A stretch of DNA of 64,000 bases from positions 64,001-128,000 of IMG/VR virus record IMGVR_UViG_3300030328_002122; one strand, written 5' to 3'. The translations under genes and the position numbers were made by a program. The notes beneath the pieces were generated by a model. It did not search any database, was not told the origin of the DNA, and saw only the letters and a list, made by a program, of their open reading frames with translations. Source of the stretch: a virus. Numbering within the stretch: the stretch's first letter is position 1; every line of letters begins with the position of its first letter. This document shows, piece after piece, positions 4,442-55,361 of this stretch.

Positions 4442-6955
4442 ATGAAATTTTATACTCATGTTGCCCAATGGGGTAACAATCTACTAGTTCGTGCAGTTGA
4501 GAATGGTGTTCGTTCAAACTTCAAAGTAAAGTATGAACCTACACTATTTGTTCCTGTAACAAAAGAAACTAATTGGAAAACATTGGATAATCGTAATGTC
4601 AATCCAATGAAGTTTCTTACAATCAAAGAAGCAAAAGAGTTTGTACAACAATATGAAAGTCAACCACATTTAGTTTGTGGTATGACACAGTTTCCATATT
4701 CATACATATCTGAAACATATCCTAATCAAATACAATATGATACATCTCTACTTAGAATTGTAACGATTGATATTGAGGTTGAATGTGAGAATGGTTTTCC
4801 AAATGCAGATCAAGCTGCAGAACCTATGTTATCTATTACTATCAAGAAACATGACACAGGTAAGATTATTGTTTGGGGTTTACATGAGTATCATAATGAC
4901 AGAGAAGATGTAAAGTATATTCGTTGTCAAAACGAAAGAGAACTTCTCACACAATTTTTGAATTGGTGGGAACATGACTATCCAGATATAATCACTGGTT
5001 GGAATACAGAGTTTTTTGATATTCCATATCTATGTAATCGCATCAATACTGTACTTGGTGAAGATGCAGTTCGTAAACTTTCGCCGTGGGGTATTGTCAG
5101 TTCTAGATTAGTTAATAGTGGGTTTGGTAAGAAAGATCAAGTGTATGATATTGTTGGTGTTGAAGAGATAGATTATCTACAACTATATCGTAAGTTTACT
5201 TATTCTGCACAAGAGTCATACAGACTAGATCATATTGCATTTGTTGAACTGGGTGAACGTAAAGATGAAAACCCATATGAAACATTTCGTGATTGGTACA
5301 CAAAAGATTATCAATCATTCTTAGACTATAATATTCAAGACGTTGAACTTGTTGATCGTATTGATGATAAGATGAAATTGATTGACCTTATATTGACTAT
5401 GACCTATGAGGCTAAAGTTAATATGTCTGATTCATTTACATCTGTTAAGTATTGGGATATTCTTATATACAATCATCTACTTAAAAATAATATTGTTATA
5501 CCACAGAAACCATCAACAAAGAATAAGTCTGAAAAGTATGTTGGTGCATATGTGAAAGAGCCTCAAGTAGGACAACACAAATGGGTATTATCTTTTGACC
5601 TAAACAGTTTGTATCCACATCTAATCATGCAGTATAATATATCACCAGAAACATTAGTAGATAAAACTGTTAATTTAGGTAAAAATCCTATTGATGATTT
5701 AGTTACAAAGAAAACTGGTTTAGATTCTTTCAAGGGAACTAACTATGCATTGACACCAAATGGTGCAATGTTTAAAAAAGATAAACAAGGGTTTCTTGCA
5801 AAGATGATGCAAGATATGTATGATGATCGTACTATTTACAAGAAGAAAATGTTAGATGCAAAACAGAAGTATGAAGATACAAAAGATCCAAAGTATCTCA
5901 AAGACATATCTAGGTTTAATAATATTCAGATGGCTCGTAAGATTTCTCTAAACTCTGCTTATGGTGCGATTGGTAACGAATGGTTTAGATACTATGAACT
6001 TATGATTGCAGAGGGTATTACAACTTCTGGTCAGTTAAGTATAAGATGGATTGAAAGAAAATTAAACGAGTACATTAATAATGTTCTCAAAACAAGTAAT
6101 AAAGATTATGTGATTGCATCAGATACAGATTCTGTTTATATCAGATTTGATGAGATTGTAAGTCATGTATTCAAAGGCTGTAATGATACACAAAGGATTG
6201 TAAACTTTCTAGATAAGATTGCAAGTGAAAAGATAGAACCATTTATTGAAAAGTCCTATCAAGAACTTGCAGATTATGTAAATGCATATGACCAAAAGAT
6301 GCAAATGAAAAGAGAAGTGATTGCAGATAAAGGTATCTGGACAGCAAAGAAAAGATATATTCTAAACGCATGGGATGTTGAGGGCGTTCGTTATCAAGAA
6401 CCACAACTCAAAGTTATGGGCCAGGAGATGGTCAAGTCATCTACGCCTGCACCTTGTCGTGAAAAGATGAGAGAAGCAGTTAAGATTATTATGAGTGGAA
6501 CTGAAAAAGATGTAAACAATTTTATTCAAGATTTTCGTGAAGAGTTTATGAAACTTCCACCAGAAGAGATTGCATTTCCAAGATCGGTAAATGGTTTAGG
6601 TAAATGGAGTAGTGGTCATGCAATATTTAAGAAAGGCTGTCCTATGCATTGTAAAGGTGCAATATTGTATAATCATTTTTTAAAAGAGAAAAAACTTACA
6701 AACAAATATCCTTTAATACAAGAGGGTAATAAGATTAAATTTTTAAACATAAGAACACCAAATCCTATGTCATCTAATGTTATATCTTTCTTTACCAAAC
6801 TACCAAAAGAACTTGACATTCACAAATATTTAGATTATGATATGCAGTACGAGAAGGCCTTTGTTGAACCTCTGACTTTTATTATGGATCAGATTGGTTG
6901 GAACATTGATCGTTCTTATGGAAAGCAAACTACACTTGAGGATTTCTTTAGTTGA
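4442..6955 (+). CDS. 43: Family B DNA polymerase gp43
   Basis: Exonuclease motifs DIE and GWN.E.FDIPY; polymerase motifs SFDLNSLYP, KISLNSAYG, SDTDS and KKRY; C-terminal clamp-binding tail LEDFF. Confidence 0.99.
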   Translation: MKFYTHVAQWGNNLLVRAVENGVRSNFKVKYEPTLFVPVTKETNWKTLDNRNVNPMKFLTIKEAKEFVQQYESQPHLVCGMTQFPYSYISETYPNQIQYDTSLLRIVTIDIEVECENGFPNADQAAEPMLSITIKKHDTGKIIVWGLHEYHNDREDVKYIRCQNERELLTQFLNWWEHDYPDIITGWNTEFFDIPYLCNRINTVLGEDAVRKLSPWGIVSSRLVNSGFGKKDQVYDIVGVEEIDYLQLYRKFTYSAQESYRLDHIAFVELGERKDENPYETFRDWYTKDYQSFLDYNIQDVELVDRIDDKMKLIDLILTMTYEAKVNMSDSFTSVKYWDILIYNHLLKNNIVIPQKPSTKNKSEKYVGAYVKEPQVGQHKWVLSFDLNSLYPHLIMQYNISPETLVDKTVNLGKNPIDDLVTKKTGLDSFKGTNYALTPNGAMFKKDKQGFLAKMMQDMYDDRTIYKKKMLDAKQKYEDTKDPKYLKDISRFNNIQMARKISLNSAYGAIGNEWFRYYELMIAEGITTSGQLSIRWIERKLNEYINNVLKTSNKDYVIASDTDSVYIRFDEIVSHVFKGCNDTQRIVNFLDKIASEKIEPFIEKSYQELADYVNAYDQKMQMKREVIADKGIWTAKKRYILNAWDVEGVRYQEPQLKVMGQEMVKSSTPAPCREKMREAVKIIMSGTEKDVNNFIQDFREEFMKLPPEEIAFPRSVNGLGKWSSGHAIFKKGCPMHCKGAILYNHFLKEKKLTNKYPLIQEGNKIKFLNIRTPNPMSSNVISFFTKLPKELDIHKYLDYDMQYEKAFVEPLTFIMDQIGWNIDRSYGKQTTLEDFFS

Positions 6956-8064
6956 TATTAGAACGTAAAGATGCAATTTATGTAGCACAAAAGTTGATGA
7001 ATTATTTCAAGGACTTTAATCGTATTGATGATTATTTTCGTGCAAGAAAGATTGAAAGAGTAAAAAATATACCATCACCATTACCAGGCATGGCTTTGGA
7101 AGATGACTTATTTCAAAACTTTGATATGCATCCAGAAGATATGAATTTTGAAGTTGTACAAATACCTACAAAGTTATTTGATACTTTACTTGAAAAAACT
7201 GCATCATTTAGTCCAGATGAAAATCCTGGCAAAACACTAAAGGTAGTTGTTAAGGAAACAAATACAAATACTGTAGTTGGATTTATTCGTTATGGTTCAC
7301 CTCTTATAAACTCTAAACCAAGAAATGATTATCTTGGTGGTGTTCCAGATCTTGACATATTTAACAAGCGTGCAATCATGGGATTTAATATTGTTCCTGT
7401 ACAACCATTTGGTTTTAATTGTTTAGGTGGTAAACTACTTGCAGCTATTTGTTGTTCCCATGCAACTCGTAGAATGTTGAATATCAAATATGATACAGAG
7501 TTTTGTTTGTTTGAAACTACATCTTTATATGGTAATATCAAGGGTGCATCTATGTATGATGGTATGCGTCCTTATTTAAGATACAAGGGTGATACTGAGT
7601 CTAAGTTTTTACTAACACTTGGTGAAGAAATATATCCAGAACTAAAAGATTGGTTTACTGAAAAGAATGGTGGTGAAGATATTATACGTAAAGGTGTATC
7701 TAGTAGAAAGTTAAAGATGCAAACTAAGATGATTGGTATAATCAAATCTTCACTTAAAGAACATGACACTAAAGCCTTTGAACTTTTTTCTAACGAAATT
7801 GCAAAGGCAAGTGATGTAACTACACAGAAAAGATTTTATATGAGTGAGTATGGTTACTCTAATGCAAAAGATGTTTTATTAGGTAAAACAAATACCTTAA
7901 CAAAAGCAGAAAATTATGATAGGTTTGAACTTGAAAATGTAATTGCATGGTGGAAAAAACTTGCAACTAAACGATACAATAATATTGTTGCAGATGGTAG
8001 AGTTCGTAAAGAACTTGAGGTTTGGAACAAAGATACTATGAATAAGATTGATATTATAAGATGA
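6952..8064 (+). CDS. DUF4338/DruA-like (putative GNAT/Mom-fold) protein, possible DNA-modification enzyme
   Basis: Motifs VP.QPFGFNCLGGKLLA and FETTSLYG..S.YDG recalled from DUF4338-like proteins. TTG start overlaps the gene 43 stop. Confidence 0.45.
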   Translation: MILERKDAIYVAQKLMNYFKDFNRIDDYFRARKIERVKNIPSPLPGMALEDDLFQNFDMHPEDMNFEVVQIPTKLFDTLLEKTASFSPDENPGKTLKVVVKETNTNTVVGFIRYGSPLINSKPRNDYLGGVPDLDIFNKRAIMGFNIVPVQPFGFNCLGGKLLAAICCSHATRRMLNIKYDTEFCLFETTSLYGNIKGASMYDGMRPYLRYKGDTESKFLLTLGEEIYPELKDWFTEKNGGEDIIRKGVSSRKLKMQTKMIGIIKSSLKEHDTKAFELFSNEIAKASDVTTQKRFYMSEYGYSNAKDVLLGKTNTLTKAENYDRFELENVIAWWKKLATKRYNNIVADGRVRKELEVWNKDTMNKIDIIR

Positions 8065-8450
8065 TAGGTTTTACTTGTGGAGCATTTGATTTATTACACG
8101 CTGGTCATATTGTGATGTTAGAAGAAGCTAAAAGTAAATGTGATAAACTTATTGTTGGGTTACAGACAGATCCAAGTATAGATAGACCAGAAAAGAATAA
8201 ACCTATTCAATCTGTTTATGAAAGGTTTATACAATTAAATGCTGTAAAGTATGTAGATCAAATAATACCATATGATACAGAAGAAAGTTTAATAGATTTA
8301 TTACAATCACAACATATTGATATTAGATTTATTGGTGAAGATTATAGAGAAAAGAAATTTACTGGATCTGAATTGCCAATAGATATTGAGTATACTAGTA
8401 GAAAACATTCGTTCTCTTCATCAAGTTTGAGAGAAAGAGTAAAAGTATGA
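8061..8450 (+). CDS. Cytidylyltransferase (TagD/glycerol-3-phosphate CT-like)
   Basis: G.FDLLHAGH (HxGH), LIVGLQTD, ER...L.AVKYVD, G.DY and terminal SSSSLR. Confidence 0.9.
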   Translation: MIGFTCGAFDLLHAGHIVMLEEAKSKCDKLIVGLQTDPSIDRPEKNKPIQSVYERFIQLNAVKYVDQIIPYDTEESLIDLLQSQHIDIRFIGEDYREKKFTGSELPIDIEYTSRKHSFSSSSLRERVKV

Positions 8451-9436
8451 AAATAACAATTGCAAGATTAAGATCAAATGTAAAATATAATGGGCCATTA
8501 GAAACTGTATTAGATAGTTTTTTTGAAAATTATGTAAAGTGGATGAAAGCGAATCCACAACATGAATATAGAACTTACAATGTATCATTTGGTAAAGATA
8601 GACCAAAGAGAATACCAGAGAATATAGAATGGGCAGATGTAATCGTCATACCATCAGATAGTGAGTTTCGATATCATGGTGAACTACAAATGAATCCAAA
8701 AGACCTTGCAAAGTCAGAAAGTCATATGGAAAAGATAATACCATTCTTTGAGGGTAAAATTGTTATCATGTGGAGAAGTGATAGAGGTGATACAGAAGAA
8801 CTATATCGCAGTTTTATACCTAATATAAAGAAGTTTATCACAATAGATGAGATTGGCTTTCCAGGCAATATTCATGGTATGAAATATCACTTTATACAAA
8901 CTCTTAAAAATCCTCTTGCAGATATGTTTGATAATGATAAGACAATTGATTTTGCTTATTGGGGAAGAATGAAACATGGTAATGATAGAGAAAAAACAAT
9001 TAGACAAATCTATCGTTCTGAATTATCTACAGTTATGGTTGGTGGATTTCCATCTGGTATAAAAAGACAATCTGCATGGATAAAAGATTGGAAGCAGTTA
9101 TACCCATTATTAGAACCAGCAAGGTCAACACTATGTTTTAATTGGATTGACCAATCTGCAACAACTAGTCGATATCCAGAAGCCTTGTCTATTGGTATCG
9201 TGCCTATGGTATGGAAAGATTATGATTCAAATAATACATATAACATTGATGATTGGCAAAGAGTATCATCATCAGAAGAATTTGTTGAAAAGGTTTTGCA
9301 ACTAAAAGATAAAAACTTTTTTGAATCTAAACTAGAAGAATACAGAAATAACTATAAAAAAGTGTTGTTATCTGAAGAAGAATATTTTAAACTTTTTTCT
9401 AAAAAAATGAATTTTGGACTTGACAAATCACTATAG
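8447..9436 (+). CDS. T4 beta-glucosyltransferase-like DNA glycosyltransferase (GT-B fold)
   Basis: Against T4 BGT recalled from memory: KTIDFAYWGRMKHGNDRE vs KTLDVIYGGSFRSGQRE, TSRYPEAL vs TLRVWETM, VSSSEEFVEKVLQLK vs VNNRAELIDRVNELK. Same genomic slot as beta-gt, between 43 and uvsX. Confidence 0.7.
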   Translation: MKITIARLRSNVKYNGPLETVLDSFFENYVKWMKANPQHEYRTYNVSFGKDRPKRIPENIEWADVIVIPSDSEFRYHGELQMNPKDLAKSESHMEKIIPFFEGKIVIMWRSDRGDTEELYRSFIPNIKKFITIDEIGFPGNIHGMKYHFIQTLKNPLADMFDNDKTIDFAYWGRMKHGNDREKTIRQIYRSELSTVMVGGFPSGIKRQSAWIKDWKQLYPLLEPARSTLCFNWIDQSATTSRYPEALSIGIVPMVWKDYDSNNTYNIDDWQRVSSSEEFVEKVLQLKDKNFFESKLEEYRNNYKKVLLSEEEYFKLFSKKMNFGLDKSL

Positions 9437-9494
9437 TTTATGTTAGTATCTTTGTATTGATTAAATTTGATTCTCAACAAGAATTTAATCAATA
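9420..9494 (+). promoter_or_regulatory. Sigma70-type promoter followed by a perfect 13-bp inverted repeat
   Basis: TTGACA (9420-9425), 18 nt, TGn-TAGTAT. IR arms tattgattaaatt (9455-9467) and aatttaatcaata (9482-9494). Confidence 0.6.
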
Positions 9495-9552
9495 TTGTTT
9501 TAATCAAGTTCTATCATGCAAATGGTAGGATGACTCAACATAGGAAAATAAA

Positions 9553-10977
9553 ATGACTAAAGTATATAGCACAGTTGTGTATGATAAAACACGACAATCA
9601 ATGACAATCGCAAGTTACCTTAAATGGGCAAGTACAGTTGCAAAACTTACAAAAAAAGAAAAGAAACTTTTGAAGAAATATTTCTTCATTGATATTGACC
9701 TTGCATTTCAATCGAGAGCAAGATGGTCAATGACACAAAAAGAAAACTTTATCAACTCTTGTCTTATTGATATGAATATTAGTAAATTTGTTTTAGTGGA
9801 TGTTCAGAGATGTAGAGATGCTTCACACAAAAATTCAGATGATTACAAATATTATGACTCTTGGTTTAAAAAGGGTGTTAATTATCTTAACGTAGATTCT
9901 AACAACAGAACTACAACTTTCAGAGAATTTGAAAAAGATGAAGTTGCAATACCTCTTGGTGATTATTTTGTAGATGGAACTACATATACTGTAACAAAAG
10001 ATACAAACTTATGTTCAACAATGAATGAGGATTTGAAGCAAACCTTTCTTGCAAATAAAACTTCTGTTCACATTGTTGTAGATGCTACAAGAGAACAATT
10101 GTCAGATCTCTTTATGAGAATGAACAGTGGTGAGTCTTTAAATTTTGAAGAACAGATTAATTGTTCATATAGTACTACTTGTGATGTCATAAGAGAATTG
10201 GTAGACACTCAAGTTAAATCTCTTAGTGATGCAAAATTATTCTCTGAGAAAGAAATTAACAGACGAAAAATTGATGGTTGGTTTGCTCATATTTTCTTTT
10301 TGTGGAGTCAACAATTTTCAACAAGTTTTACAAATACTGTTCATAAAAAATGGTATAGTTCAGACTCAGTTTCAAATAAATCTGTAAACACCTTTGTAAA
10401 AGATTGGAATTCTTTTATGGAATTAATCGCTGGAAAAGTAAAACTTTTTCATCATAAATGGGTCTTATTCGATTTATTTTATCAAATAGTAAAACAACAA
10501 AGATTGCATAAAGAACTTGTAAATGAAAATGTTGTTATGGATTTTATCGAAATGTACACTAAGTTGGCAGAAGATAAGAAACCTAGATATTCATATGATG
10601 AAACAATTACTGATGAGTCTGTGTTGTTTCCTTTTAAACAGTTTACGAGGGGTGGAGATGTTAATAACTTCAACGCTAGACATAGAGTATATGAATCAAA
10701 AGGTTGGGATATTTCAAAGTACTTTGGTAGTCCAGACCCAAAAGACTCAACTAGAACTTTTACAAGGATTGAAAAACAAGCAATCGCAGTTAGGGATAGT
10801 TGGAAAGATAGTGATGGTGATATGTTTGAACCAGAGTCTTTATTTGATGGTGATTTAGATTGTGGACATATTATTTCTCACAATAAAAAAGGGAAAACAG
10901 TATTGTCAAATGGTGTAGTAGAAAAAATGCCTAAAAATCGTGGTAAACATGACAAGGAAACAATAGTAACTAGATGA
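9553..10977 (+). CDS. DUF262 (ParB-like) + C-terminal HNH protein, GmrSD-like
   Basis: FQSRARW (QR..W), VDSNNRTTT (DGQQR variant), LFMRMNSG (F.R.N.G); C-terminal DCGHIISH.K.G.T...N......N..K. Confidence 0.7.
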   Translation: MTKVYSTVVYDKTRQSMTIASYLKWASTVAKLTKKEKKLLKKYFFIDIDLAFQSRARWSMTQKENFINSCLIDMNISKFVLVDVQRCRDASHKNSDDYKYYDSWFKKGVNYLNVDSNNRTTTFREFEKDEVAIPLGDYFVDGTTYTVTKDTNLCSTMNEDLKQTFLANKTSVHIVVDATREQLSDLFMRMNSGESLNFEEQINCSYSTTCDVIRELVDTQVKSLSDAKLFSEKEINRRKIDGWFAHIFFLWSQQFSTSFTNTVHKKWYSSDSVSNKSVNTFVKDWNSFMELIAGKVKLFHHKWVLFDLFYQIVKQQRLHKELVNENVVMDFIEMYTKLAEDKKPRYSYDETITDESVLFPFKQFTRGGDVNNFNARHRVYESKGWDISKYFGSPDPKDSTRTFTRIEKQAIAVRDSWKDSDGDMFEPESLFDGDLDCGHIISHNKKGKTVLSNGVVEKMPKNRGKHDKETIVTR

Positions 10978-12026
10978 AAATACTTTTACCTTATCAAGAT
11001 CCATATGATAGACCTCTCACTCACCCAATTGTGAGTGGGGGTACTGAAATGTTCTGTAAAAGTATTTACGATAATTTTGATGTAGAGGTTTTGCAGTTTG
11101 AATGTAAAGACATTTTAGAACAAAAAGAACTTTACACTCGTAAATATATACAAGAACAACAAAAAAAGATTATAGAAAAAGCAGAGGAGTGTAACGCAGA
11201 TGTTATAGTTAATAACTTTGCTTGGTCTGGATTTTGTGGTTCAGTAATATCTAAATCACATATTCCAATAATGAATGTTGAGCATTGTTTCTATCCATTT
11301 TTATCCATCATAAATAAATGGGATAAGTTAATTAAAAATGGACACTCTGTATTTCTTGTATCTAACTTCCAAAAAAAGTTCTACGATAAAATGACAAAAA
11401 GAGCTAAGTTTGAACCATTTCCCTTTAACATTATTAGTCCATCATATTGTAAAACAAAACCAGATATTTTAGATAACGAATATGATTGTGGCACTATTGG
11501 CAGATGTGACAAAGAAAAGAATCCTTTCAAATTAAAGCATATGACTAAACATACAGATTTAAATACGTTGGTTATAACATCAAAATCTTCACATGAAAAA
11601 AATTCAAAATATTATGAAACCAATAAGAATTGGAATAATGTTATTTGGGATAAACCACATGATGAGGTTGTAAAGAATATTTCAAAATGTAAAACATTCT
11701 TCTCTACTTGGAATAAAGAAACATGGGGAATAACTGCACTAGAATCTTTATCTTGTGGTGTGCCAGTAATACTAAATTGTGATAATGATGGTGACCATGC
11801 ATCTGAGATTATTCCTGCTCATAAAAGTCATTATAAGAAAATACCTAATAATGACAAGTCTGCATTGATTGATGCGATTGATAGTTTTGATGTAGATAAA
11901 AAAGAAGTTCAAGAAATGACATGGGAAAAACATAATTTGGATAATTGGAAAAAACAATTTTCTAATGCTGTTTCAATTACAATAGATAAGTTTAAAAGAC
12001 CAAATTTACTTGACTTTTTAAACTAA
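10974..12026 (+). CDS. Glycosyltransferase family 4 (GT-B)
   Basis: N-terminal SGGTE, GR...EKN and the E-x7-E motif ETWGITALESLSCGVPVI. Confidence 0.88.
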   Translation: MKILLPYQDPYDRPLTHPIVSGGTEMFCKSIYDNFDVEVLQFECKDILEQKELYTRKYIQEQQKKIIEKAEECNADVIVNNFAWSGFCGSVISKSHIPIMNVEHCFYPFLSIINKWDKLIKNGHSVFLVSNFQKKFYDKMTKRAKFEPFPFNIISPSYCKTKPDILDNEYDCGTIGRCDKEKNPFKLKHMTKHTDLNTLVITSKSSHEKNSKYYETNKNWNNVIWDKPHDEVVKNISKCKTFFSTWNKETWGITALESLSCGVPVILNCDNDGDHASEIIPAHKSHYKKIPNNDKSALIDAIDSFDVDKKEVQEMTWEKHNLDNWKKQFSNAVSITIDKFKRPNLLDFLN

Positions 12027-12053
12027 ATATCACATATACAATATGAGGTAAAA

Positions 12054-13226
12054 ATGATTATAGAAGAAGATACCAAACTAGATTTTTCTGATGTATTAAT
12101 CAGACCAAAAAGATCAACTCTTAAATCAAGAAAACAAGTAAATTTATTTAGAACTATGGACTTTAGAAATGCTAAAGGACATGATAGACGTTTTTATGGA
12201 ATACCTATTATTGCATCTAATATGGATGGTGTAGGTACTATGGAGATTGCAGATATTTTAGCTTCAGAAAGAATGTTTAGTTGTCTAGTTAAAACATATA
12301 ATACAAATGAATTAGTTGAATATTTTGATGCAGATGTATTAGGACAAGATGCATTTGATATATATCCAATGAGAACTGAACACGTTGCAATGTGTATTGG
12401 TGCAACTGAAGAAGAATATCTAAAGTTCAGAGATGTTTATGAACTTACTGATGGTAAAATAAAATATTTGTGTGTTGATGTTGCAAATGGTTACACAGAA
12501 ATGTTTAGTAACTTTATATATAATATAAGATCTAATCATCCAGAATTAGTCATTATTGCTGGTAATGTTGTAACAGCAGATATGACACAAGAACTAATAT
12601 TAAATGGTGCAGATATAATAAAAGTTGGTATTGGGCCTGGTTCTGTTTGTACAACAAGAGTTCATACTGGAATTGGTTATCCACAACTATCTGCAATTAT
12701 AGAATGTGCAGATGCAGCTCATGGTTTAGGTGGTCATATTATTGCAGATGGTGGTTGTACTACAAGTGGTGATATTGCAAAAGCATTTGGTGGTGGTGCA
12801 GATTTTGTTATGTTAGGGGGTATGTTTGCTGGACATGATGAAGGTGGTGGAGAAATAATTTCTACAGAACATATTACTAGTGAAATAAAAAATGTTAATA
12901 GAGGCTCACCTTTGTTTGTTGAAGGTCAAGAAGCACATAGGGAAACTAAAAAAAGACAAATGATTCATTTTTATGGAATGAGTTCTACGATTGCAAATGA
13001 TAAACATTTTGGTGGGTTAAAAGATTATCGTGCAAGTGAAGGTAAAGAAGTTATGATACCTTACAAAGGCCCTATTAAAGATACCATACAACATATACTT
13101 GGTGGATTGAGATCTACTTGTACTTATGTTGGTGCAAAACAAATAAAACACTTGACAAAGTGTACAACATTTGTTAAAGTAAACAAAACCCATAATACAA
13201 TATTTGGAGATTCTAATGGAAGGTGA
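12054..13226 (+). CDS. guaC: GMP reductase
   Basis: LDFSDVLIRPKRSTL.SR, IIASNMD, DVANGY, KVGIGPGSVCTTR, FYGMSS and YRASEGK. Confidence 0.95.
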   Translation: MIIEEDTKLDFSDVLIRPKRSTLKSRKQVNLFRTMDFRNAKGHDRRFYGIPIIASNMDGVGTMEIADILASERMFSCLVKTYNTNELVEYFDADVLGQDAFDIYPMRTEHVAMCIGATEEEYLKFRDVYELTDGKIKYLCVDVANGYTEMFSNFIYNIRSNHPELVIIAGNVVTADMTQELILNGADIIKVGIGPGSVCTTRVHTGIGYPQLSAIIECADAAHGLGGHIIADGGCTTSGDIAKAFGGGADFVMLGGMFAGHDEGGGEIISTEHITSEIKNVNRGSPLFVEGQEAHRETKKRQMIHFYGMSSTIANDKHFGGLKDYRASEGKEVMIPYKGPIKDTIQHILGGLRSTCTYVGAKQIKHLTKCTTFVKVNKTHNTIFGDSNGR

Positions 13227-13620
13227 TTTATTAACAGATTATGAAGAGTTCGTTAATGAGGTAACGAGTCAAGCTTCAAAAAGTCCTAAAAACTTTATAG
13301 ACGAAATTGATAGGATTGAAGAACAAGGAGTTAATCCAGCAAGACTTTTAACTGCAAGTGTAGGTTTGTCTGGTGAAAGTGGTGAATTTAGTGATATAGT
13401 AAAGAAGGTAGTATTTCAAGGTAAAGAAATAGATGATGATGTAGTTAAACATCTTAGGTCTGAACTTGGTGATATCATGTGGTATGTAGCACAAGGGTGT
13501 TTGGCTTTAGATACAACTATTGAAGAATTAATAGATATTAATACTGCGAAACTTGAGTCTAGATATCCTGGCGGTTTCTCAATGTTTAGATCTGAAAATA
13601 GACGTAAGGACGATATATAA
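13216..13620 (+). CDS. MazG-like NTP pyrophosphohydrolase
   Basis: GLSGESGEFSDIVKK, ELGDIMWYVAQ and N..KL..RYP. Start taken at MEGDLL, downstream of a ggaga SD. Confidence 0.88.
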   Translation: MEGDLLTDYEEFVNEVTSQASKSPKNFIDEIDRIEEQGVNPARLLTASVGLSGESGEFSDIVKKVVFQGKEIDDDVVKHLRSELGDIMWYVAQGCLALDTTIEELIDINTAKLESRYPGGFSMFRSENRRKDDI

Positions 13621-14676
13621 ATGGATTTTTTAAAAGAGATTGTAAAAACAACTGGTAATGAGTATGCAGCTTTAGTTTCAGATGGAGTAGAAGCAGGAGA
13701 TGTAGATTCATTTATTGACTCTGGTTCTTACATTTTCAATGCATTATTATCTGGTAGTATCTATGGTGGATTGCCTAGTAATAAGATAACTGCAATCGCT
13801 GGTGAAAGTGCAACAGGAAAAACATTTTTTGTTATGGGTATGGTCAAAAGTTTTCTAGATGCAAATCCAGATGCTGGTGTTTTATACTTTGAATCAGAAT
13901 CTGCAATTACAAAACAGATGGTAATCGACAGAGGTATAGATCCAAACAGAATGGTGATTGTTCCTGTAACAACTGTACAAGAATTTAGAACACAAGCTAT
14001 TCGTGTACTAGATAAGTTGTTAGAACAAAATGAATCAGATAGAAAACCCATCATGTTATGTCTTGATTCACTTGGTATGTTATCTACTACAAAAGAAGTA
14101 GAAGATACTGCTGATGGAAAAGAAACTAGAGATATGACACGAGCACAAGTTCTTAAAGCTGCATTTCGTGTATTAACTTTAAAACTAGGTCGTGCAAAAG
14201 TACCAATGGTTGTTACTAATCATACTTATGATGTTGTTGGTTCTATGTTTCCTACAAAAGAAATGGGTGGTGGTTCTGGACTAAAGTATGCAGCTTCATC
14301 TATTGTATATCTTTCAAAAAAGAAAGAGAAAGATGGAACTGAAGTAATTGGTAATATTGTACATTGTAAAAATGCAAAATCAAGACTTACAGTAGAAAAT
14401 AAAATGGTTGATGTAAGATTAACCTATACTAAAGGTTTAGACAGACACTATGGATTACTTGACCTTGCACTCAAGTATGGTATATTTAAATCTGTTTCTA
14501 CAAGAATAGAATTACCAGATGGTTCAAAGACATTTGGTAAAACAATAAATAATGATCCTACTAAGTTCTTTACTGAAGATATTATGAAACAGTTAGACGA
14601 ATGTGCAACTAAAGAATTTAAGTATGGAAACAAAAAAGCTGAGGAAGTTGTAGATGGTAGTTCTGAGCAAACTTGA
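13621..14676 (+). CDS. uvsX: RecA-like recombinase UvsX
   Basis: [21 protein letters not shown] and [12 protein letters not shown]. Confidence 0.96.
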
Positions 14677-16620: not shown

Positions 16621-18000
16621 ATGGCTAGAAATTTCTTTCGACAGATTAATCCTATCTGCGAGTCTAATAAAACACCTTTAGATATAGTTCAACAACTTGT
16701 TTCAGAAGCTACAATGAGTATAGCTCAACTGAAAAAAAGAGATAACCTCAATGTCCTTAAAGATTTAATAGACAATAAAAAACCAATAGATACTACAATT
16801 GGTTCTAGAATTATGTCTTGGATAAACCCCCAAAATAAAGTAGCATATGACAATCTTACACCAAAATCAAGTGATAAAGATTTTCAAAGAGTATTTCCAA
16901 GAGGTGCAGAAGTTTTTGTTACTGATAAAAATGAAAAGTTAAAATTATCAGGAATAGAAAAGACAGATATTTTTGGTGGTGGTAAAGGTTCTGGTGGTGG
17001 TTCTTCTGGAACTAAAGATGCTGAATCTGGTCAATGTGTATATTTACAGGTAATATGGGATAATCCAAAAACTGAATTTACTCCAGAAGAAATTTCTTCT
17101 GCATATGATAAAGTTTATGTTGATGCAACAAAAGATGGTGTTTTAAAATTATCAGATGATTGGGTAACATCTTCAATAACAAGTGCAAAATTATTATATA
17201 GAGTTTTAGGTAAAAGAAAGTATTCTTTTCATAGGGGTTCTGCATGGGTAAGTAAACTAGGAGAGTATTTTAAAGATTCTGGTCAAGATTATTTTACTGA
17301 TATTAATAAATGGACACCAGCTGATATTTGGTTGATAGACGATTCACAGTTAGGAAAATATGATTTTGGGGGTGGAGTTGGATTACCATATTTAAATAAT
17401 ATACTTTTACAAGCATATGCAGCTCGTGATATAATTGGTGTATCTTTAAAGAAAACCACTAAAGCAAAACTTAGTCAAATGAATTATAGAAAACCATTTA
17501 AAGAACCTAATTTTACAAGAGTGAATTTTGGTAAAAGAGATTATTTTAAATCTAAAGATGGTTATATTCAATTTAAAGAAGGTGAAATACAATTTAGAAC
17601 CTTTCCTGCTTTTCAAGGAGAGATAATTGGTAAAACAGCAAAACATGGAAAAATAAGTGGTGATAGTGGCCCTTTGGGCCCAATAGGTAAAGTTATGAGA
17701 TCAATTGGAGCTCAACCCATTCCTGCTCGAAAAGATATAACTGCAATGATAAAACAACAAGAAGATGAGTTTTTTCAAAAGTTTCATAATGAATATTCAC
17801 AAGCGGTACAAAAACCATTATCATTAAAAGATTTTAGAACTAATTTGAGTCGTAAAGATAGTGGTTGGTTAGAATCGAAATATCTAGTAACATTTATGTT
17901 TAATCGTATAAGAGGAAAAGAACAACTATTTTTATCTAAAGCATTTAGATATGCAAAATCACAATCTAAAGAATCAGCTGTTCATTTGAAGGTGTATTAA
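16621..18000 (+). CDS. PD-(D/E)xK restriction-endonuclease-fold protein (putative)
   Basis: Helix E (DAESGQC), KWTPADIWL and IGVSLKK catalytic-like motifs. ATG 16621 preferred over the TTG at 16597. Confidence 0.55.
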   Translation: MARNFFRQINPICESNKTPLDIVQQLVSEATMSIAQLKKRDNLNVLKDLIDNKKPIDTTIGSRIMSWINPQNKVAYDNLTPKSSDKDFQRVFPRGAEVFVTDKNEKLKLSGIEKTDIFGGGKGSGGGSSGTKDAESGQCVYLQVIWDNPKTEFTPEEISSAYDKVYVDATKDGVLKLSDDWVTSSITSAKLLYRVLGKRKYSFHRGSAWVSKLGEYFKDSGQDYFTDINKWTPADIWLIDDSQLGKYDFGGGVGLPYLNNILLQAYAARDIIGVSLKKTTKAKLSQMNYRKPFKEPNFTRVNFGKRDYFKSKDGYIQFKEGEIQFRTFPAFQGEIIGKTAKHGKISGDSGPLGPIGKVMRSIGAQPIPARKDITAMIKQQEDEFFQKFHNEYSQAVQKPLSLKDFRTNLSRKDSGWLESKYLVTFMFNRIRGKEQLFLSKAFRYAKSQSKESAVHLKVY

Positions 18001-19247
18001 TGATTAAGTTTAGTAATTTTTTAACTGAAGATAAGGCTGGTAAGAATTTACATCTAGAACATATCGAAGATGAAATTCTAAACTTTGGTGTGCCTGGTGG
18101 TAGAGCTGCAATCAACTTTGTTCAATCACTTAGAGATATGTTATCTGGTTCTTCAAGATCATCAGTCAATATGACAGTCAAATGGGATGGTGCTCCTGCA
18201 ATCTTTGCTGGTACAGATCCTAGTGATGGTAAATTCTTTGTTGCAAAGAAATCAGTATTCAATGTTAATCCAAAATTATATAAGACTAATGCAGAAATAG
18301 ATGCAGATTTATCTGGAGATTTAAATGCAAAATTCAAAGTCGCACTTGCAGAGTTCTCAAAACTTGGAATCAAAGGAGTCCTTCAAGGAGATCTTATGTA
18401 CACCTCAAATGATTTATCGAAAGAAAATGTTGAGGGGATATCATATTACACTTTCCAGCCTAACACTATTGTTTACGCTGTTCCTATTGACAGCACTTTA
18501 GGTAAGGTTATAAAGAGTTCTAAGATAGGAGTTGTATGGCATACAACATATACAGGAGATAATCTACAGGATATGAAAGCTTCTTTTGGTGCAAACATAA
18601 GTGGTCTTAAAACTGTATCAAGTGTTTGGATGGATGATGCAACTTATAAAGATGTATCTGGTAAAGCAACAATGACAGAAAAAGAAACTACATCAGTTAC
18701 TAAGTCATTATCAAATGCTGGTTCTATGTTCCAAAAAATAAACTCATCTATGTTAAGTAAGTTTTTAAATATACAAAATACATTTACTGGTAACCTATCT
18801 GGTGCATCTTTGAAAACATATAACAATAGTAAAGTACGACAGGGTAAACCTGTATCAAATCCAAAATCCCATGCACAAGGATATATAAGTTGGGTAGAAG
18901 ATACGTTTCAAAAACAAATTGATAAACTAAAAACACAATCAAGAAAAGATGCACTAGAGAATAAAAAGAAAGAAATATCTCGTGAGTTGCAAAAACATAC
19001 TTCTAATCTTACAAATGTGATCGCATTTCAAAATTATATAGTAGAAGCAAAGATGGGAATCGTAAGGAAACTAAATAGTGTTAAGGGGTTGACTAATACT
19101 TTTATCAAAACTGCAAATGGATTTAAAGTAACTAATCCAGAGGGGTATGTTGCAATAGATAGAATTTCTGGTAATGCAGTTAAACTTGTTGATAGAATGG
19201 AGTTTAGTTTTAACAACTTTACTGCAATAAAGGCGTGGGACAAATGA
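18000..19247 (+). CDS. ATP-dependent ligase-fold nucleotidyltransferase (RNA-ligase-like, DUF6267-like)
   Basis: Motif I VKWDG, motif III-like LQGDLMY, motif IV PEGYV and motif V VKLVDR. N-terminus MIKFSNFLTE. Confidence 0.65.
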   Translation: MIKFSNFLTEDKAGKNLHLEHIEDEILNFGVPGGRAAINFVQSLRDMLSGSSRSSVNMTVKWDGAPAIFAGTDPSDGKFFVAKKSVFNVNPKLYKTNAEIDADLSGDLNAKFKVALAEFSKLGIKGVLQGDLMYTSNDLSKENVEGISYYTFQPNTIVYAVPIDSTLGKVIKSSKIGVVWHTTYTGDNLQDMKASFGANISGLKTVSSVWMDDATYKDVSGKATMTEKETTSVTKSLSNAGSMFQKINSSMLSKFLNIQNTFTGNLSGASLKTYNNSKVRQGKPVSNPKSHAQGYISWVEDTFQKQIDKLKTQSRKDALENKKKEISRELQKHTSNLTNVIAFQNYIVEAKMGIVRKLNSVKGLTNTFIKTANGFKVTNPEGYVAIDRISGNAVKLVDRMEFSFNNFTAIKAWDK

Positions 19248-19636
19248 AAACATATGAAGAGTTAATGTACGAATTAGAAGAAAAGAAAGCGATGAGCGTT
19301 CTTCAAAGACGTAAGATGGGTATTCGTATGAGAAAGATGATGAAGAACCCAGCCGTTCAAGCGAAGATTGCAAGATCAAAAAAGAAACTTGCTCCAGATT
19401 CAAAAATTTTACAACGTGCAAATAAAGCTGCAAAACAAATTATTATTAAAAAGTTTGCTGGACTACAACCAAATGAATATGCAAATTTATCTATGATGCA
19501 AAGACAAACGATAGATAATAAAATTGTTTCAAAAAAGGCTGGTGCGATTAAAAAGATTGCAAAGAAACTAGTTGTTAAGTTGAAGAAAGCAGAACTAGAA
19601 AGATTGAAAAAAGCAAGAGAGGTTGGAAACCAATGA
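19244..19636 (+). CDS. Basic (Lys/Arg-rich) protein, probable internal head protein
   Basis: N-terminus MKTYEELMYE resembles the T4 capsid-targeting sequence; very basic. Confidence 0.6.
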   Translation: MKTYEELMYELEEKKAMSVLQRRKMGIRMRKMMKNPAVQAKIARSKKKLAPDSKILQRANKAAKQIIIKKFAGLQPNEYANLSMMQRQTIDNKIVSKKAGAIKKIAKKLVVKLKKAELERLKKAREVGNQ

Positions 19637-21261
19637 AAAAGTTTTTAGACATTGCAGAAGCTAGAGGGGATACTGCTGTCTTTACTTTTGGTAGATTTAA
19701 TCCACCAACTATAGGACACGAAAAGTTAGTAGATAAAGTTGCATCTGTCGCTAAGAGTAATCCAGGCGCACCTTATTATATCTTTGCATCACATTCAGAA
19801 AACCCAAAGAAAGATCCATTACCATATGTAAAAAAAGTTGCATATATGAAAAAGATGTTCTCAAAACATTCTAGGAATATAACAACAAGTAGAGATAGAA
19901 CTGTATTTGAACTTGCAGTAACACTTTACAATAAAGGACATAAAGCAATTGTGATGGTTGTTGGTTCTGATAGAGTTACAGAGTTCGACACACTATTAAA
20001 CAAATATAATGGTGTTGAAGGTAGACATGGTTACTATGGTTTTGATAATATAGAGGTTGTATCTGCTGGAGAAAGAGATCCAGATGCAGAAGGTGTATCT
20101 GGAATGTCTGCATCAAAGATGAGAGCAGCTGCATCAGCAGATGACTACGATACTTTTAAATTAGGGTTACCTAAGAACTTTAATAATGGAATGTCTTTAT
20201 TTAAAGATGTTCGTAAATTTATGGGTATTCGTGAGTCTTTTGTTGAACACCAAGTTAATATGACAGAGGAAGATGTTATTCGTGATATGTATGTTGAAAA
20301 TAAAATATTCTGTACTGGAGATATTGTAGAAGATGATTATAGTGGCGTATCTGGTACAGTAGTTCGTAGAGGAACAAATTATCTTGTATTTGCAGAAAGT
20401 GATGGTACAACTCATAAGAGATGGTTATATGAAGTAAGAAGAGTAAAACAAGAAGCAAGAGCAAAACAAGCAGTTTCTGGTGGAAAAGTTCAGAAACTTG
20501 TTACTGCACATGGTTTAAAATATAATGGTAAGGTGTATAAAGAAATAGATATGGAACTAAAAGGTATTGACAACAATACTCAAATGGTTACATTTAATAT
20601 TATACATCCCAAAGAAATATTTGGTAATGAAGTTAAAATTGCATTTAAAGTTTTGAGAAGAGGCCCCTTCATGGCAACTGATACTTCAAAGATAAATAAA
20701 GAAGATTTGGATGAAAAAGGAATAAAAAGAGCTTATGATAATATTGTAAAAGATTATTCTGATATGGTAAAAAAAGGAAAGGGTAAACATAGTAACTCTT
20801 TCTATCTGTCAAGAGCTGCAATGAATTATGGAGTTGATACTATCAAACCTATTAGAGATTATATTAACTCTCTTGTTAAATCAGATGAATTACCAAAAGA
20901 TTTATCGGCAGAATACGAAAAATTTGATGAAGAATTAGACGAAAAGATTGAAAGTCTTGTAAATAAATCTAATCAAAATGGTGTTCCATATTCTATACTT
21001 AAAGAAAGTTATGATAGAGGAATGTCTGCATGGAAAAATGGTCACAGGCCAGGTGTAAGTCAACAACAATGGGCGTTTGCAAGAGTCAACTCTATGTTAA
21101 CTGGTGGAAAAGCAGATCCAGATTTACAAAAACAAATTCGTGTTAGTGGATATAAAAAGAAAAAGAAATTAAAGTTAGAAGATTTTAAAGAAAATGTTTC
21201 ATATATAAAAAAGAAAGAAGAAAAAATAATATCTTTTAAAGAACACGTTAGGGGTATTTAA
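19633..21261 (+). CDS. HxGH nucleotidyltransferase (NMNAT/cytidylyltransferase-like) fused to extra C-terminal domains
   Basis: FGRFNPPTIGH, VVGSDR and MSASKMR. Later domains are separated by EDLDE/EELDE; last domain contains RG..AW..GHRPG..QQQWAFARVNS. Confidence 0.75.
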   Translation: MKKFLDIAEARGDTAVFTFGRFNPPTIGHEKLVDKVASVAKSNPGAPYYIFASHSENPKKDPLPYVKKVAYMKKMFSKHSRNITTSRDRTVFELAVTLYNKGHKAIVMVVGSDRVTEFDTLLNKYNGVEGRHGYYGFDNIEVVSAGERDPDAEGVSGMSASKMRAAASADDYDTFKLGLPKNFNNGMSLFKDVRKFMGIRESFVEHQVNMTEEDVIRDMYVENKIFCTGDIVEDDYSGVSGTVVRRGTNYLVFAESDGTTHKRWLYEVRRVKQEARAKQAVSGGKVQKLVTAHGLKYNGKVYKEIDMELKGIDNNTQMVTFNIIHPKEIFGNEVKIAFKVLRRGPFMATDTSKINKEDLDEKGIKRAYDNIVKDYSDMVKKGKGKHSNSFYLSRAAMNYGVDTIKPIRDYINSLVKSDELPKDLSAEYEKFDEELDEKIESLVNKSNQNGVPYSILKESYDRGMSAWKNGHRPGVSQQQWAFARVNSMLTGGKADPDLQKQIRVSGYKKKKKLKLEDFKENVSYIKKKEEKIISFKEHVRGI

Positions 21262-24141: not shown

Positions 24142-24173
24142 TTCATTCTAAAAATTCTAAAGGAACACGATAA

Positions 24174-28325: not shown

Positions 28326-28330
28326 GATAG

Positions 28331-28338
28331 TATAAATA
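28331..28338 (+). promoter_or_regulatory. T4 late promoter
   Basis: TATAAATA upstream of fibre 3. Confidence 0.8.
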
Positions 28339-28355
28339 CTTAAAAAGGAATAACT

Positions 28356-54566: not shown

Positions 54567-55142
54567 ATGGAATCGTGGGAAGCCTATCAGATGTATCTAG
54601 GTCTTAAATTACACTTTACAAGTGACTATGATTACAGACGATATGGTGGTAAAACATCTGCCTCTAAATCATCTTTCTTGAAAAGAAAAGACAGGAATTT
54701 CTTTTCAAGAGTTGTAAGAAAATATGAAGGTAAAGAATTAGATTTTTTTATATCTAATTTTATTAAGCAACCGAAAGGTTATATTGGAGATTTTAAGGAA
54801 GAAAATTTTATAGAGTGGTCTAAAAATCAACAATCGTTGACATATAACTTTATTAAAGATATGTCACATTTAGTTTCTCAAGAAAGTTTTGATAACATAT
54901 TTAAATGCGAGTCTGGTAAACATCCAACTCTTGTCAAATCTTATCTTGCAAAAAGAATTAGTTTAGAAACTATGGTGATATTACAAAGTTTAGTCAACTA
55001 CATGGAACAGTTTAATAGGGATTTAAAACAAGACTTAATATGGCCAGACATAAGAAGAATGGTTACGAAATATAGTTCGTTTTTATCTTTTGATAAACAT
55101 AAATGCAAAATAAAACTTCTAGAATTACTAAAGGAGATATGA
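54567..55142 (+). CDS. 59: Helicase loader gp59
   Basis: Y..YL.LKLHFT..YDY..Y.GK, F.KRKDR.FF and ISLET. Confidence 0.9.
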   Translation: MESWEAYQMYLGLKLHFTSDYDYRRYGGKTSASKSSFLKRKDRNFFSRVVRKYEGKELDFFISNFIKQPKGYIGDFKEENFIEWSKNQQSLTYNFIKDMSHLVSQESFDNIFKCESGKHPTLVKSYLAKRISLETMVILQSLVNYMEQFNRDLKQDLIWPDIRRMVTKYSSFLSFDKHKCKIKLLELLKEI

Positions 55143-55351
55143 TCGTGGAAAAAGAAATGCACTCTAATAATAAAAGTAAACTTGTTAGAGAAAGAGATTT
55201 TTATCGTGCTAAAATGAGTGAATTAAAAAATAAGATAAAAGCTCTTGAATATGATAATGCAGAATTAATTAAACGTGATCAAGTTTTATCTAAGAGAATG
55301 GAAGAAATAACTTCCTTGAGATCACTTAAACAAAAGAAAAGGGTTAATTGA
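55103..55351 (+). CDS. Coiled-coil hypothetical protein (start likely 55139)
   Basis: SD aaggag before ATG 55139. Confidence 0.55.
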   Translation: MQNKTSRITKGDMIVEKEMHSNNKSKLVRERDFYRAKMSELKNKIKALEYDNAELIKRDQVLSKRMEEITSLRSLKQKKRVN

Positions 55352-55361
55352 GGATTTATAA

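What the first reader, a model, noticed from the sequence alone, without database searches (positions are those of the whole stretch)
6952..13620. Candidate new DNA-hypermodification pathway in the T4 gene 42/beta-gt slot, with no hydroxymethylase
Established: in T4 the 43-uvsX interval holds dCMP hydroxymethylase (42) and beta-gt. Seen: here it holds a DUF4338/DruA-like putative GNAT/Mom-fold protein, a TagD-like cytidylyltransferase and a BGT-like transferase, coupled to gene 43 by TTGA/ATGA overlaps. A GT4 glycosyltransferase, GuaC and a MazG-like pyrophosphatase follow. No gp42-type enzyme, TET or methyltransferase is visible in the window. Inference: the GNAT-like enzyme may create a handle on a base, the cytidylyltransferase may supply a CDP-polyol or CDP-sugar donor, and the two glycosyltransferases may decorate phage DNA with an unknown adduct.
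Basis: partly seen in the sequence, partly recalled or inferred. Interest (0 to 1): 0.85.

Follow-up and report, generated by a model that had tools for sequence, protein, structure and literature searches.

The report
Mom-like acyltransferase plus BGT-like DNA-modification island
An abundant uncultured ocean T4-like phage carries, where T4 keeps its hydroxymethylase and DNA glucosyltransferase, a Mom-like acyltransferase paired with a true relative of that glucosyltransferase but no hydroxymethylating enzyme, so it probably makes an undescribed sugar-bearing DNA base.

Summary
All ORFs, the TTGA/ATGA overlaps and the family calls were confirmed.

- **6952-8064:** a DruA/DUF4338-family GNAT. 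Its best solved structural match is phage Mu Mom.
- **8447-9436:** a real homologue of T4 DNA beta-glucosyltransferase (BGT), by both fold and sequence profile.
- **Whole genome (95% complete):** no ThyA-fold hydroxymethylase, no TET/JBP and no C5-methylase.
- **Unmentioned ORF 9553-10977:** a DUF262-HNH endonuclease, not a biosynthetic enzyme.
- **Just before the window:** an N6/N4 DNA methylase.

Comparative genomics adds the main evidence. The GNAT and the BGT-like gene travel together through at least six genome positions and orders in marine T4-like phages. In near-identical siblings, window 8056-12025 is swapped for a single other glycosyltransferase-like gene. In phage Melnitz the same slot holds a C5-methylase plus TET.

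So the slot is a DNA-modification island, and GNAT plus BGT-like is its core pair. The link of the cytidylyltransferase to the pathway is weak. GuaC and MazG are stable flanks, not part of it. The chemistry (which base, which handle, which donor) is inferred, not shown.

This scan has already found the same pair on other phage DNA. I found no paper describing it.

The parts
4442..6955 (+). gp43 family-B DNA polymerase; upstream anchor, its stop overlaps the next start (TTGA)
   Evidence: Pfam DNA_pol_B and phrog_262; 78% identical to Melnitz gp43; overlap read
6952..8064 (+). DruA/DUF4338-family GNAT with a Mom-like fold ('DruAl'); proposed priming enzyme of the module
8061..8450 (+). 129-aa TagD/ECT-type nucleotidyltransferase; occasional accessory gene
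   Evidence: PF01467 67 bits. PDB: ECT 9e-20, TagD 9e-15 over the full length. Below the TagD and RfaE-II equivalog cut-offs. Present in 14 of 48 and 12 of 57 related loci.
8447..9436 (+). Homologue of T4 DNA beta-glucosyltransferase ('p329'), GT-B fold; proposed DNA glycosyltransferase
9420..9449 (+). Promoter-like site (TTGACA-18-TAGTAT, TG extension) in the only intergenic gap of the block, before the nuclease gene
   Evidence: consensus match only, and the site count in the region equals chance. Gap sequence read.
9553..10977 (+). DUF262 (GmrSD_N-like) plus C-terminal HNH endonuclease ('p474'); probably a free-standing mobile or modification-sensing nuclease
   Evidence: phrog_2598, shared with a Pfam-positive GmrSD_N+HNH_4 protein of sibling loci. 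Atlas look-alikes carry GmrSD_N and HNH. Motifs read. Replaced by a different nuclease-like gene in L041 and L058.
10974..12026 (+). GT4-type glycosyltransferase; recurrent partner of the BGT-like gene, possible second sugar transferase
   Evidence: PF00534 43.8 bits. Beside p329 in L194-L197, L201, L204, L206 and L219. No homologue in isolate phages.
8056..12025 (.). Exchangeable cassette; replaced by one 1.39-kb gene (c9, glycosyltransferase-like) in siblings that are 95-96% identical on both sides
   Evidence: blastn breakpoints at window 8055 and 12026 against L005 and L006
12054..13226 (+). GMP reductase GuaC; stable flank, nucleotide-pool gene, not part of the cassette
   Evidence: NF003470 497.7 bits above cut-off; retained in L003-L006, which lack the cassette
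13204..13620 (+). MazG-like pyrophosphohydrolase; stable flank next to uvsX
   Evidence: PF03819 33.4 bits; conserved before UvsX in Melnitz and many loci
13621..14676 (+). UvsX recombinase; downstream anchor of the slot
   Evidence: Pfam RecA and phrog_97

Best explanation
The gp43-uvsX interval of this marine T4-like phage is a DNA-modification island. Its core is a two-gene module.

1. **DruA-family GNAT (6952-8064).** It has a Mom-like fold and sits where T4 has gene 42. It is proposed to put an acyl or aminoacyl group on a base in phage DNA. By analogy with Mom this would happen after replication, possibly on adenine N6.
2. **BGT homologue (8447-9436).** It is proposed to transfer a sugar from an NDP-sugar onto that new handle. 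It cannot use hydroxymethylcytosine, because the genome has no way to make it.

The GT4 enzyme (10974-12026) may add a second residue. The TagD/ECT-like nucleotidyltransferase (8061-8450) may supply an activated donor, but that link is weak. The DUF262-HNH gene (9553-10977) is a free-standing nuclease: either selfish or able to tell modified from unmodified DNA. GuaC and MazG are separate nucleotide-pool genes.

Shown: folds, homology, gene order, co-inheritance, cassette exchange, and absence of hydroxymethylase and TET. Inferred: DNA as the target, the order of steps, the base, the handle and the donor.
For: **The BGT-like protein (p329)**
- BGT is the only significant PDB hit of the family profile.
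- hhalign gives E 7.7e-5 over the donor domain. It aligns the invariant R242/E245 with BGT R269/E272, and K176/R181 near BGT R191/R195.
- An ESM Atlas cluster in which 40% of members carry PF09198 is the nearest named cluster.

**The GNAT (DruAl)**
- DruAl has a GNAT core, and Mom is the top match in two searches.
- Mom is a proven DNA-adenine modifier that uses Gly-tRNA (PMC13219725).

**Co-inheritance**
- 46 of 48 loci with 2.5 kb or more after DruAl carry a glycosyltransferase-like gene. These are p329 (25) or c9 (21), never both.
- 53 of 57 further p329 loci carry a DruA-like gene.
- The pair appears in these contexts:
  - after gp43;
  - between gp44 and gp62;
  - as an inverted island between uvsW and gp23;
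  - upstream of gp43;
  - beside gp47;
  - after gp46, with a second DruA paralogue.

**Other contents of the same slot**
- Melnitz has a C5-MTase plus Tet_JBP there.
- Siblings have a TAGT-family glycosyltransferase and a true Mom there.

**Links of the p329 family to DNA enzymes**
- p329 relatives are fused to, or sit next to, N6/N4 DNA methylases.

**Synteny with T4**
- T4 reads 43-imm.1-imm-42-b-gt-segA-uvsX.

**No hydroxymethylpyrimidine route**
- There is no ThyA-fold or TET gene in this genome, in HTVC008M (100% complete) or in the 148-kb L037 genome.
Against: - There is no chemical evidence of any modified base.
- p329 does not hit Pfam PF09198. Its acceptor (N-terminal) domain shows no sequence similarity to BGT.
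- In cyanophage-type genomes the GNAT mostly stands alone between gp44 and gp62. It therefore has a function that needs no glycosyltransferase.
- GT4 plus a TagD-like enzyme is also a classic surface-polymer pairing. A published analysis read pelagimyophage glycosyltransferases and rfaE as LPS-related (PMC7029224).
- Many loci are near-duplicates, so the counts overstate independent events.
Confidence: 0.5

Rival explanations
1. There are two independent DNA modifications. The GNAT alone makes a Mom-like adenine adduct. The BGT-like enzyme glycosylates a hydroxymethylpyrimidine, or another hydroxylated base, made by an enzyme not recognised here: a divergent oxygenase, the ThyX homologue, or a host activity.
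For: The GNAT stands alone in most cyanophage-type loci. HTVC008M has a JmjC/cupin gene between its p329 homologue and its DruA paralogue. Siblings carry a TAGT-family glycosyltransferase, a family normally tied to TET products. ThyX is present.
Against: Neither this genome nor HTVC008M has a ThyA-fold or TET/JBP gene. This genome also has no 2OG-FeII_Oxy_3 hit and no homologue of the sibling oxygenases. The very tight GNAT-p329 linkage across six contexts is hard to explain if the two do not cooperate.
Confidence: 0.2
2. The glycosyltransferases and the nucleotidyltransferase are auxiliary genes that remodel a host surface polymer (LPS or a teichoic-like polymer) or glycosylate a protein, for superinfection exclusion. 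The GNAT is an unrelated acyltransferase.
For: GT4 and TagD/RfaE-like enzymes are typical of envelope glycan synthesis. This is the published reading for pelagimyophage glycosyltransferases (PMC7029224). SAR11 hosts rarely have restriction systems (same paper).
Against: p329 is specifically BGT-like, not GT8- or GT4-like. Its relatives are fused to or sit beside DNA methylases. The slot holds a C5-MTase plus TET, Mom and TAGT in relatives. The genes are translationally coupled to the DNA polymerase gene.
Confidence: 0.12
3. The GNAT acylates a protein (a replisome or host factor), or acts as a counter-defence mimic of Druantia DruA. The neighbouring genes are an unrelated mosaic brought in by homing endonucleases.
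For: The GNAT always sits among replisome genes: after gp43 or between gp44 and gp62. Nuclease-like genes (p474, c7, c27) are interspersed and swap independently. DruA is a defence-system protein of unknown function (Pfam PF14236).
Against: A mosaic does not predict that p329 or c9 follows the GNAT in 46 of 48 loci, or that the pair moves together to new positions. No Druantia partner genes are present.
Confidence: 0.1

Closest known systems
T4 gene 42 (dCMP hydroxymethylase) plus beta-glucosyltransferase (b-gt, Pfam PF09198, CAZy GT63), followed by segA
   Same: Same chromosomal slot between gp43 and uvsX. It holds a homologous GT-B DNA-glucosyltransferase-like enzyme with conserved NDP-binding residues. 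In relatives a free-standing nuclease gene follows it, as segA follows b-gt in T4.
   Different: There is no ThyA-fold hydroxymethylase anywhere. A GNAT sits in its place. The acceptor domain of p329 has no sequence similarity to BGT. Extra GT4 and nucleotidyltransferase genes are present.
Phage Mu Mom (Pfam PF25680), a Gly-tRNA-dependent N6-adenine DNA modifier
   Same: GNAT core with a helical insertion. Mom is the best solved structural match, with 172-185 residues aligned against about 145 for other GNATs. The cyanophage orthologue has already been annotated 'mom' from structure (PMC12801897).
   Different: No Pfam Mom hit. The protein is 370 aa against about 230 aa for Mom and has an extra N-terminal helical region. 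It belongs to DruA/DUF4338. Equivalents of the Mom catalytic residues were not mapped. True Mom genes coexist with it in some sibling genomes, which argues for a different reaction.
Phage C5-methylase + TET/5mYOX + glycosyltransferase hypermodification clusters (TAGT, PF20691)
   Same: It is a modular island with a priming enzyme, one or more glycosyltransferases and nucleases or ParB-fold proteins. Melnitz carries the canonical C5-MTase plus Tet_JBP cassette in the very same slot. ParB-fold proteins and glycosyltransferases in such clusters are described in PMC13229309.
   Different: This genome has no methylase-TET pair and no TAGT. The priming enzyme is a GNAT.
Druantia type I DruA (DUF4338, PF14236)
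   Same: Same protein family. It was called a GNAT domain in PMC10853773, and paralogues in related phages pass the Pfam threshold.
   Different: It is phage-encoded, with no DruB-E partners, and lies in a replication module. The window's copy scores just below the Pfam cut-off.

Membership tests
T4 beta-glucosyltransferase family (PF09198 / GT63) | Full-length GT-B fold closest to BGT | tested here: met
T4 beta-glucosyltransferase family (PF09198 / GT63) | Sequence-level homology | tested here: inconclusive
   Profile against PDB: BGT is the only significant hit, E 7.7e-4. hhalign gives 62% probability and E 7.7e-5, for the C-terminal domain only. There is no Pfam PF09198 hit at E 0.01.
T4 beta-glucosyltransferase family (PF09198 / GT63) | UDP-binding residues (BGT R191, R195, R269, E272) | tested here: met
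   Invariant R242/E245 align with R269/E272. K176 aligns with R191. Invariant R181 lies one column from R195.
T4 beta-glucosyltransferase family (PF09198 / GT63) | Catalytic base equivalent to BGT Asp100 | not tested
   The N-terminal domain is not aligned at sequence level, and no residue-level superposition was available. Near-invariant D64, E73 and D115 are candidates.
T4 beta-glucosyltransferase family (PF09198 / GT63) | 5-hydroxymethylcytosine acceptor supplied by the phage | tested here: not met
   No PF00303 and no Tet_JBP in the 95%-complete genome; the TET search worked on Melnitz.
Mom family (PF25680) | GNAT fold with Mom as nearest structure | tested here: inconclusive
Mom family (PF25680) | Profile match and essential residues R111, S124, D149, R151 | tested here: inconclusive
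   No Pfam Mom hit for the window protein, although true Mom proteins of sibling loci hit at 173 bits. hhalign against those finds nothing. The residues were not mapped.
DruA / DUF4338 (PF14236) | Pfam profile match above the gathering score | tested here: inconclusive
   24.1 bits against a cut-off of 27 for the window protein. Most close homologues carry a precomputed PF14236 label. Paralogues 24-29% identical to it score 74-76 bits.
TagD / ECT-type cytidylyltransferase (PF01467) | Family profile, and specific equivalog scores | tested here: inconclusive
   PF01467 67 bits, above cut-off. TagD (71 against 165) and RfaE-II (78 against 181) equivalog cut-offs are not reached. ECT and TagD are the nearest solved proteins. 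The substrate is unknown.
GmrSD-type DUF262-HNH nuclease | GmrSD_N domain plus HNH motif | tested here: inconclusive
   No Pfam GmrSD_N hit in the genome at E 1. It shares phrog_2598 with a Pfam-positive sibling protein. Atlas look-alikes carry GmrSD_N and HNH. DUF262-like and HNH-like motifs were read by eye.
GT4 glycosyltransferase (PF00534) | Profile above cut-off | tested here: met
   43.8 bits against 26.4
GMP reductase GuaC | NCBIfam equivalog score | tested here: met
   NF003470 497.7 bits against 397

The most novel reading that the evidence does not exclude
A GNAT of the Druantia DruA family acylates or aminoacylates a DNA base (perhaps adenine N6, with an amino acid that carries a hydroxyl). 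A BGT-derived transferase then glycosylates that adduct. The result would be a sugar-amino-acid purine hypermodification in some of the most abundant phages of the ocean. It would also reveal the biochemical activity of DruA in Druantia defence.
Probability: 0.3. Interest if true: 0.88.

Novelty: new variant of a known kind. Interest (0 to 1): 0.72.

Why it matters
Every known DNA glucosylation system in phages starts from a hydroxymethylpyrimidine made by a ThyA-fold enzyme or a TET/JBP oxygenase. Here a BGT homologue is inherited together with a Mom-like GNAT, in genomes that have neither.

This points to a different priming chemistry. The lineage is very abundant: the metagenome searches returned 5,247 homologues of the GNAT and 844 of the BGT-like protein, many from Tara samples.

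It gives a concrete gene pair that can be tested by expression in E. coli. An isolate, HTVC008M, has DNA that could be analysed directly. It also offers a handle on the unknown function of DruA in Druantia. Finally, it bears on how native marine virome DNA behaves in sequencing and restriction-based methods.

Tried and rejected
- **Melnitz cassette.** BLASTP of the window's cassette proteins against the Melnitz genes in the same slot found no homology.
- **Shallow profile comparisons.** hhalign among p474, c7, c9, c27 and c74, between DruAl and true Mom, and between p329 and GT4 or TAGT, found nothing significant.
- **PDB sequence searches.** Searches with single proteins, and with the c7 and c9 profiles, found nothing.
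- **Distant p329 loci.** The search for related loci with the diverse p329 alignment failed for lack of conserved stretches. Several distant p329 relatives sit on contigs too short to be informative.
- **A private aminoacyl-tRNA donor.** I tested whether the phage's aaRS-like gene and odd tRNA-Asn could feed a Mom-like enzyme. Both genes are real. Among isolates, however, the aaRS-like gene occurs in P-SSM2, P-SSM5 and P-SSM7, none of which appeared among the tblastn hits for the GNAT. The idea is not supported.
- **Promoters and terminators.** Counts in the block equal chance.
- **GT4.** It has no homologue in isolate phages.
- **Sibling cassette genes.** None of the alternative cassette genes of siblings occurs elsewhere in this genome.
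- **Literature.** I found no paper on a DruA-GNAT plus BGT-like pairing.
- **Not done.** A complex prediction was not run, because I do not claim that the proteins bind each other.


Full report
**What the window is.** The window is bases 64001-128000 of a 145-kb IMG/VR virus record estimated to be 95% complete. Its GC content is about 32%. Its gp43 is 78% identical to that of Methylophilales phage Melnitz and about 50% identical to that of Pelagibacter phage HTVC008M. It is therefore an uncultured marine T4-like myophage of the pelagi/methylo-myophage group. The gene order around the finding is Hsp20, gp45, gp44, gp62, RegA, a small ORF, gp43, then the block in question, then UvsX, a small ORF and gp41.

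**Check of the observation.**
- All ORFs exist at the stated coordinates.
- The coupling is real. TTGA joins gp43 to 6952. ATGA joins 6952 to 8061 and 8061 to 8447.
- T4 reads 43-imm.1-imm-42-b-gt-segA-uvsX, so the comparison with the T4 slot is correct.
- The whole genome lacks a ThyA-fold enzyme (PF00303), Tet_JBP, a C5 DNA methylase and TAGT. The Tet_JBP six-frame search rang in Melnitz as a positive control.
- ThyX is present.
- Two things were missed. ORF 9553-10977 lies between the two glycosyltransferases. An N6/N4 DNA methylase (about 514 aa, 113.6 bits) lies directly after gp46, about 200 bases before the window begins.

**The BGT-like protein (8447-9436).**
- It has no Pfam, PHROG or NCBIfam match.
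- Its family is small. An exhaustive search found 161 clusters at 50% identity, nearly all about 330 aa long.
- An AlphaFold model built from 44 diverse members has mean pLDDT 93.
- The twelve best Foldseek matches in the PDB are all T4 beta- or alpha-glucosyltransferase.
- The family profile finds BGT as its only significant PDB hit, at E 7.7e-4.
- hhalign against the T4 protein gives E 7.7e-5 over 177 columns covering the donor-binding domain. It aligns the invariant R242 and E245 with BGT R269 and E272. K176 and R181 fall at or next to R191 and R195.
- The acceptor domain has no detectable sequence similarity to BGT. That fits a different acceptor.
- One distant family member is fused to ParB_N and an N6/N4 DNA methylase. 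Another sits directly beside such a methylase.

**The GNAT (6952-8064).**
- Pfam DruA matches at 24.1 bits, just under the cut-off. Most close homologues carry a precomputed PF14236 label.
- Paralogues 24-29% identical to it score 74-76 bits.
- DUF4338 has been called a GNAT domain (PMC10853773).
- The model (pLDDT 88) has a GNAT core at residues 60-325 with a helical insertion.
- Mom transfers glycine from Gly-tRNA to adenine N6 in double-stranded DNA (PMC13219725).
- A cyanophage orthologue was already annotated 'mom' from structure (PMC12801897).
- The GNAT search returned 5,247 homologues in metagenomes.

**The other genes.**
- **8061-8450:** a 129-aa nucleotidyltransferase nearest to ethanolamine-phosphate cytidylyltransferase and TagD. 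Homologues 53-59% identical occur in many unrelated phages. In the two whose neighbourhoods I read, Caulobacter phage Cr30 and Vibrio phage phiKT1024, the gene stands alone among hypothetical genes.
- **9553-10977:** it carries DUF262-like motifs and a C-terminal HNH motif. It shares phrog_2598 with a sibling protein that Pfam calls GmrSD_N plus HNH_4. Its Atlas look-alikes carry those families. It follows the only intergenic gap of the block, which holds a promoter-like site.
- **10974-12026:** a GT4 glycosyltransferase.
- **12054-13620:** GuaC and MazG.

**Comparative genomics: loci found with the GNAT.**
- In 80 IMG/VR loci found with the GNAT, gp43 is the upstream neighbour in 57 of 76 cases.
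- Of 48 loci with at least 2.5 kb downstream, 46 carry a glycosyltransferase-like gene in the same-strand run.
  - The gene is either p329 (25 loci) or a 447-aa protein, c9 (21 loci), and never both.
  - c9 has a GT-B-like motif and glycosyltransferase look-alikes in the Atlas.
- Around the pair are variable extras:
  - the nucleotidyltransferase (14 loci);
  - a TAGT-family glycosyltransferase (55 bits, above cut-off);
  - a true Mom (173 bits);
  - an FkbM methyltransferase;
  - a P-loop kinase;
  - nuclease-like genes.

**Comparative genomics: loci found with p329.** Of 57 new p329 loci with room upstream, 53 hold a DruA-like gene, and 51 of those lie within 2.2 kb. The pair occurs in at least six arrangements:
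- after gp43;
- between gp44 and gp62;
- as a counter-oriented island between uvsW and gp23;
- as GNAT-nucleotidyltransferase-p329 upstream of gp43;
- beside gp47;
- in HTVC008M-type genomes, after gp46, as p329 homologue, then a JmjC/cupin protein, then a second DruA paralogue.

Many of these loci are near-duplicates, so the counts are not counts of independent events. The number of distinct contexts is the stronger argument.

**Cassette exchange.** Against siblings that are 95-96% identical, homology stops exactly at window 8055 and resumes at 12026. The 3.97-kb segment holding the nucleotidyltransferase, p329, the nuclease and GT4 is replaced by the single c9 gene. GuaC, MazG and the GNAT stay in place. 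In two other loci the nuclease gene alone is swapped for a different nuclease-like gene between p329 and GT4, as expected of a free-standing mobile endonuclease gene.

**The same slot in relatives.**
- In Melnitz the slot holds a C5-methylase. The next gene is annotated 'hypothetical' but is a Tet_JBP oxygenase (43 bits, above cut-off). Then come a nuclease-like gene, a P-loop kinase and MazG. That is the known methylase-TET type of cluster (compare PMC13229309).
- HTVC008M has only the GNAT between gp43 and uvsX.
- Cyanophage-type genomes keep the GNAT between gp44 and gp62, usually alone.
- HTVC008M (100% complete) and a 148-kb genome carrying p329, TAGT and Mom also lack ThyA-fold and TET genes.

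**Reading.** The slot is a DNA-modification island, and GNAT plus BGT-like is a co-inherited module. The most economical mechanism is that the GNAT, in gene 42's position, makes the handle and the BGT homologue glycosylates it. GT4 would be an optional second transferase.

My odds:
- about 0.6 that DNA is the target;
- about 0.4 for the handle-then-sugar order;
- about 0.25 that the nucleotidyltransferase feeds the pathway.

The main rivals are two independent modifications, envelope or protein glycosylation as proposed for pelagimyophage glycosyltransferases (PMC7029224), and a protein-directed GNAT. Nothing chemical has been measured.

**Earlier notes of this scan.** Other readers and two follow-up agents reported the same DruA/BGT-like pair on other phage DNA. 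I re-derived several of those configurations independently. I treat their conclusions as leads only.

Noticed in passing
G000:C1:62255-63799 (L184:1342-2886), about 200 bases before the window start: An N6/N4 DNA methyltransferase of about 514 aa, with a large insertion in the methylase domain, lies directly after gp46. The phage therefore does encode a DNA methylase, outside the window.
   Followed up: partly
L001:5208-6194 (Melnitz MZ577097.1, gene 6): This gene is annotated 'hypothetical' but is a Tet_JBP oxygenase (43 bits, above cut-off). It sits next to the HhaI-like C5-methylase. Melnitz therefore probably carries an oxidised-5mC type DNA modification, which its paper does not mention.
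   Followed up: partly
L183:4671-5489 and 5795-5883 (G000 54670-55488 and 55794-55882): A catalytic-domain-only class II aaRS-like protein (tRNA-synt_2, 52.9 bits) sits right after gp23, followed by an 89-nt tRNA-Asn(GUU). Its homologues are in P-SSM2, P-SSM5 and P-SSM7, so it is not co-distributed with the GNAT.
   Followed up: partly
L002:5576-6103 (HTVC008M gp105): A JmjC/cupin-like protein sits between the BGT-like gp104 and the DruA paralogue gp106. It is a possible hydroxylase step in that version of the module.
   Followed up: no
L037:12646-13452 and L016:6285-7064: Sibling genomes carry a true Mom (173 bits) and a TAGT-family glycosyltransferase in the same slot, together with the DruA-like GNAT and p329. 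Up to four DNA-modification-type genes therefore coexist without any TET.
   Followed up: partly
window 19633-21261: A second nucleotidyltransferase: a 542-aa protein with an N-terminal CTP_transf_like domain and a C-terminal DUF5824. It follows a DUF6267 protein (18000-19247). HTVC008M has a 596-aa 'cytidyltransferase' at the matching place.
   Followed up: no
window 55662-56273: ThyX (Thy1, 140 bits) is the only thymidylate-synthase-type enzyme in the genome.
   Followed up: no
window 21262-32480: Three very large proteins (959, 1383 and 1374 aa) are built from repeated Laminin_G_3 / concanavalin-like modules. They are probably fibre or host-recognition proteins.
   Followed up: no
L069:10118-11353 and related loci (c7 family): The roughly 410-aa protein that usually follows p329 has an N-terminal GIY-YIG-like motif and a possible ParB-like motif, read by eye. 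It mirrors segA after b-gt in T4. No profile support was obtained.
   Followed up: partly
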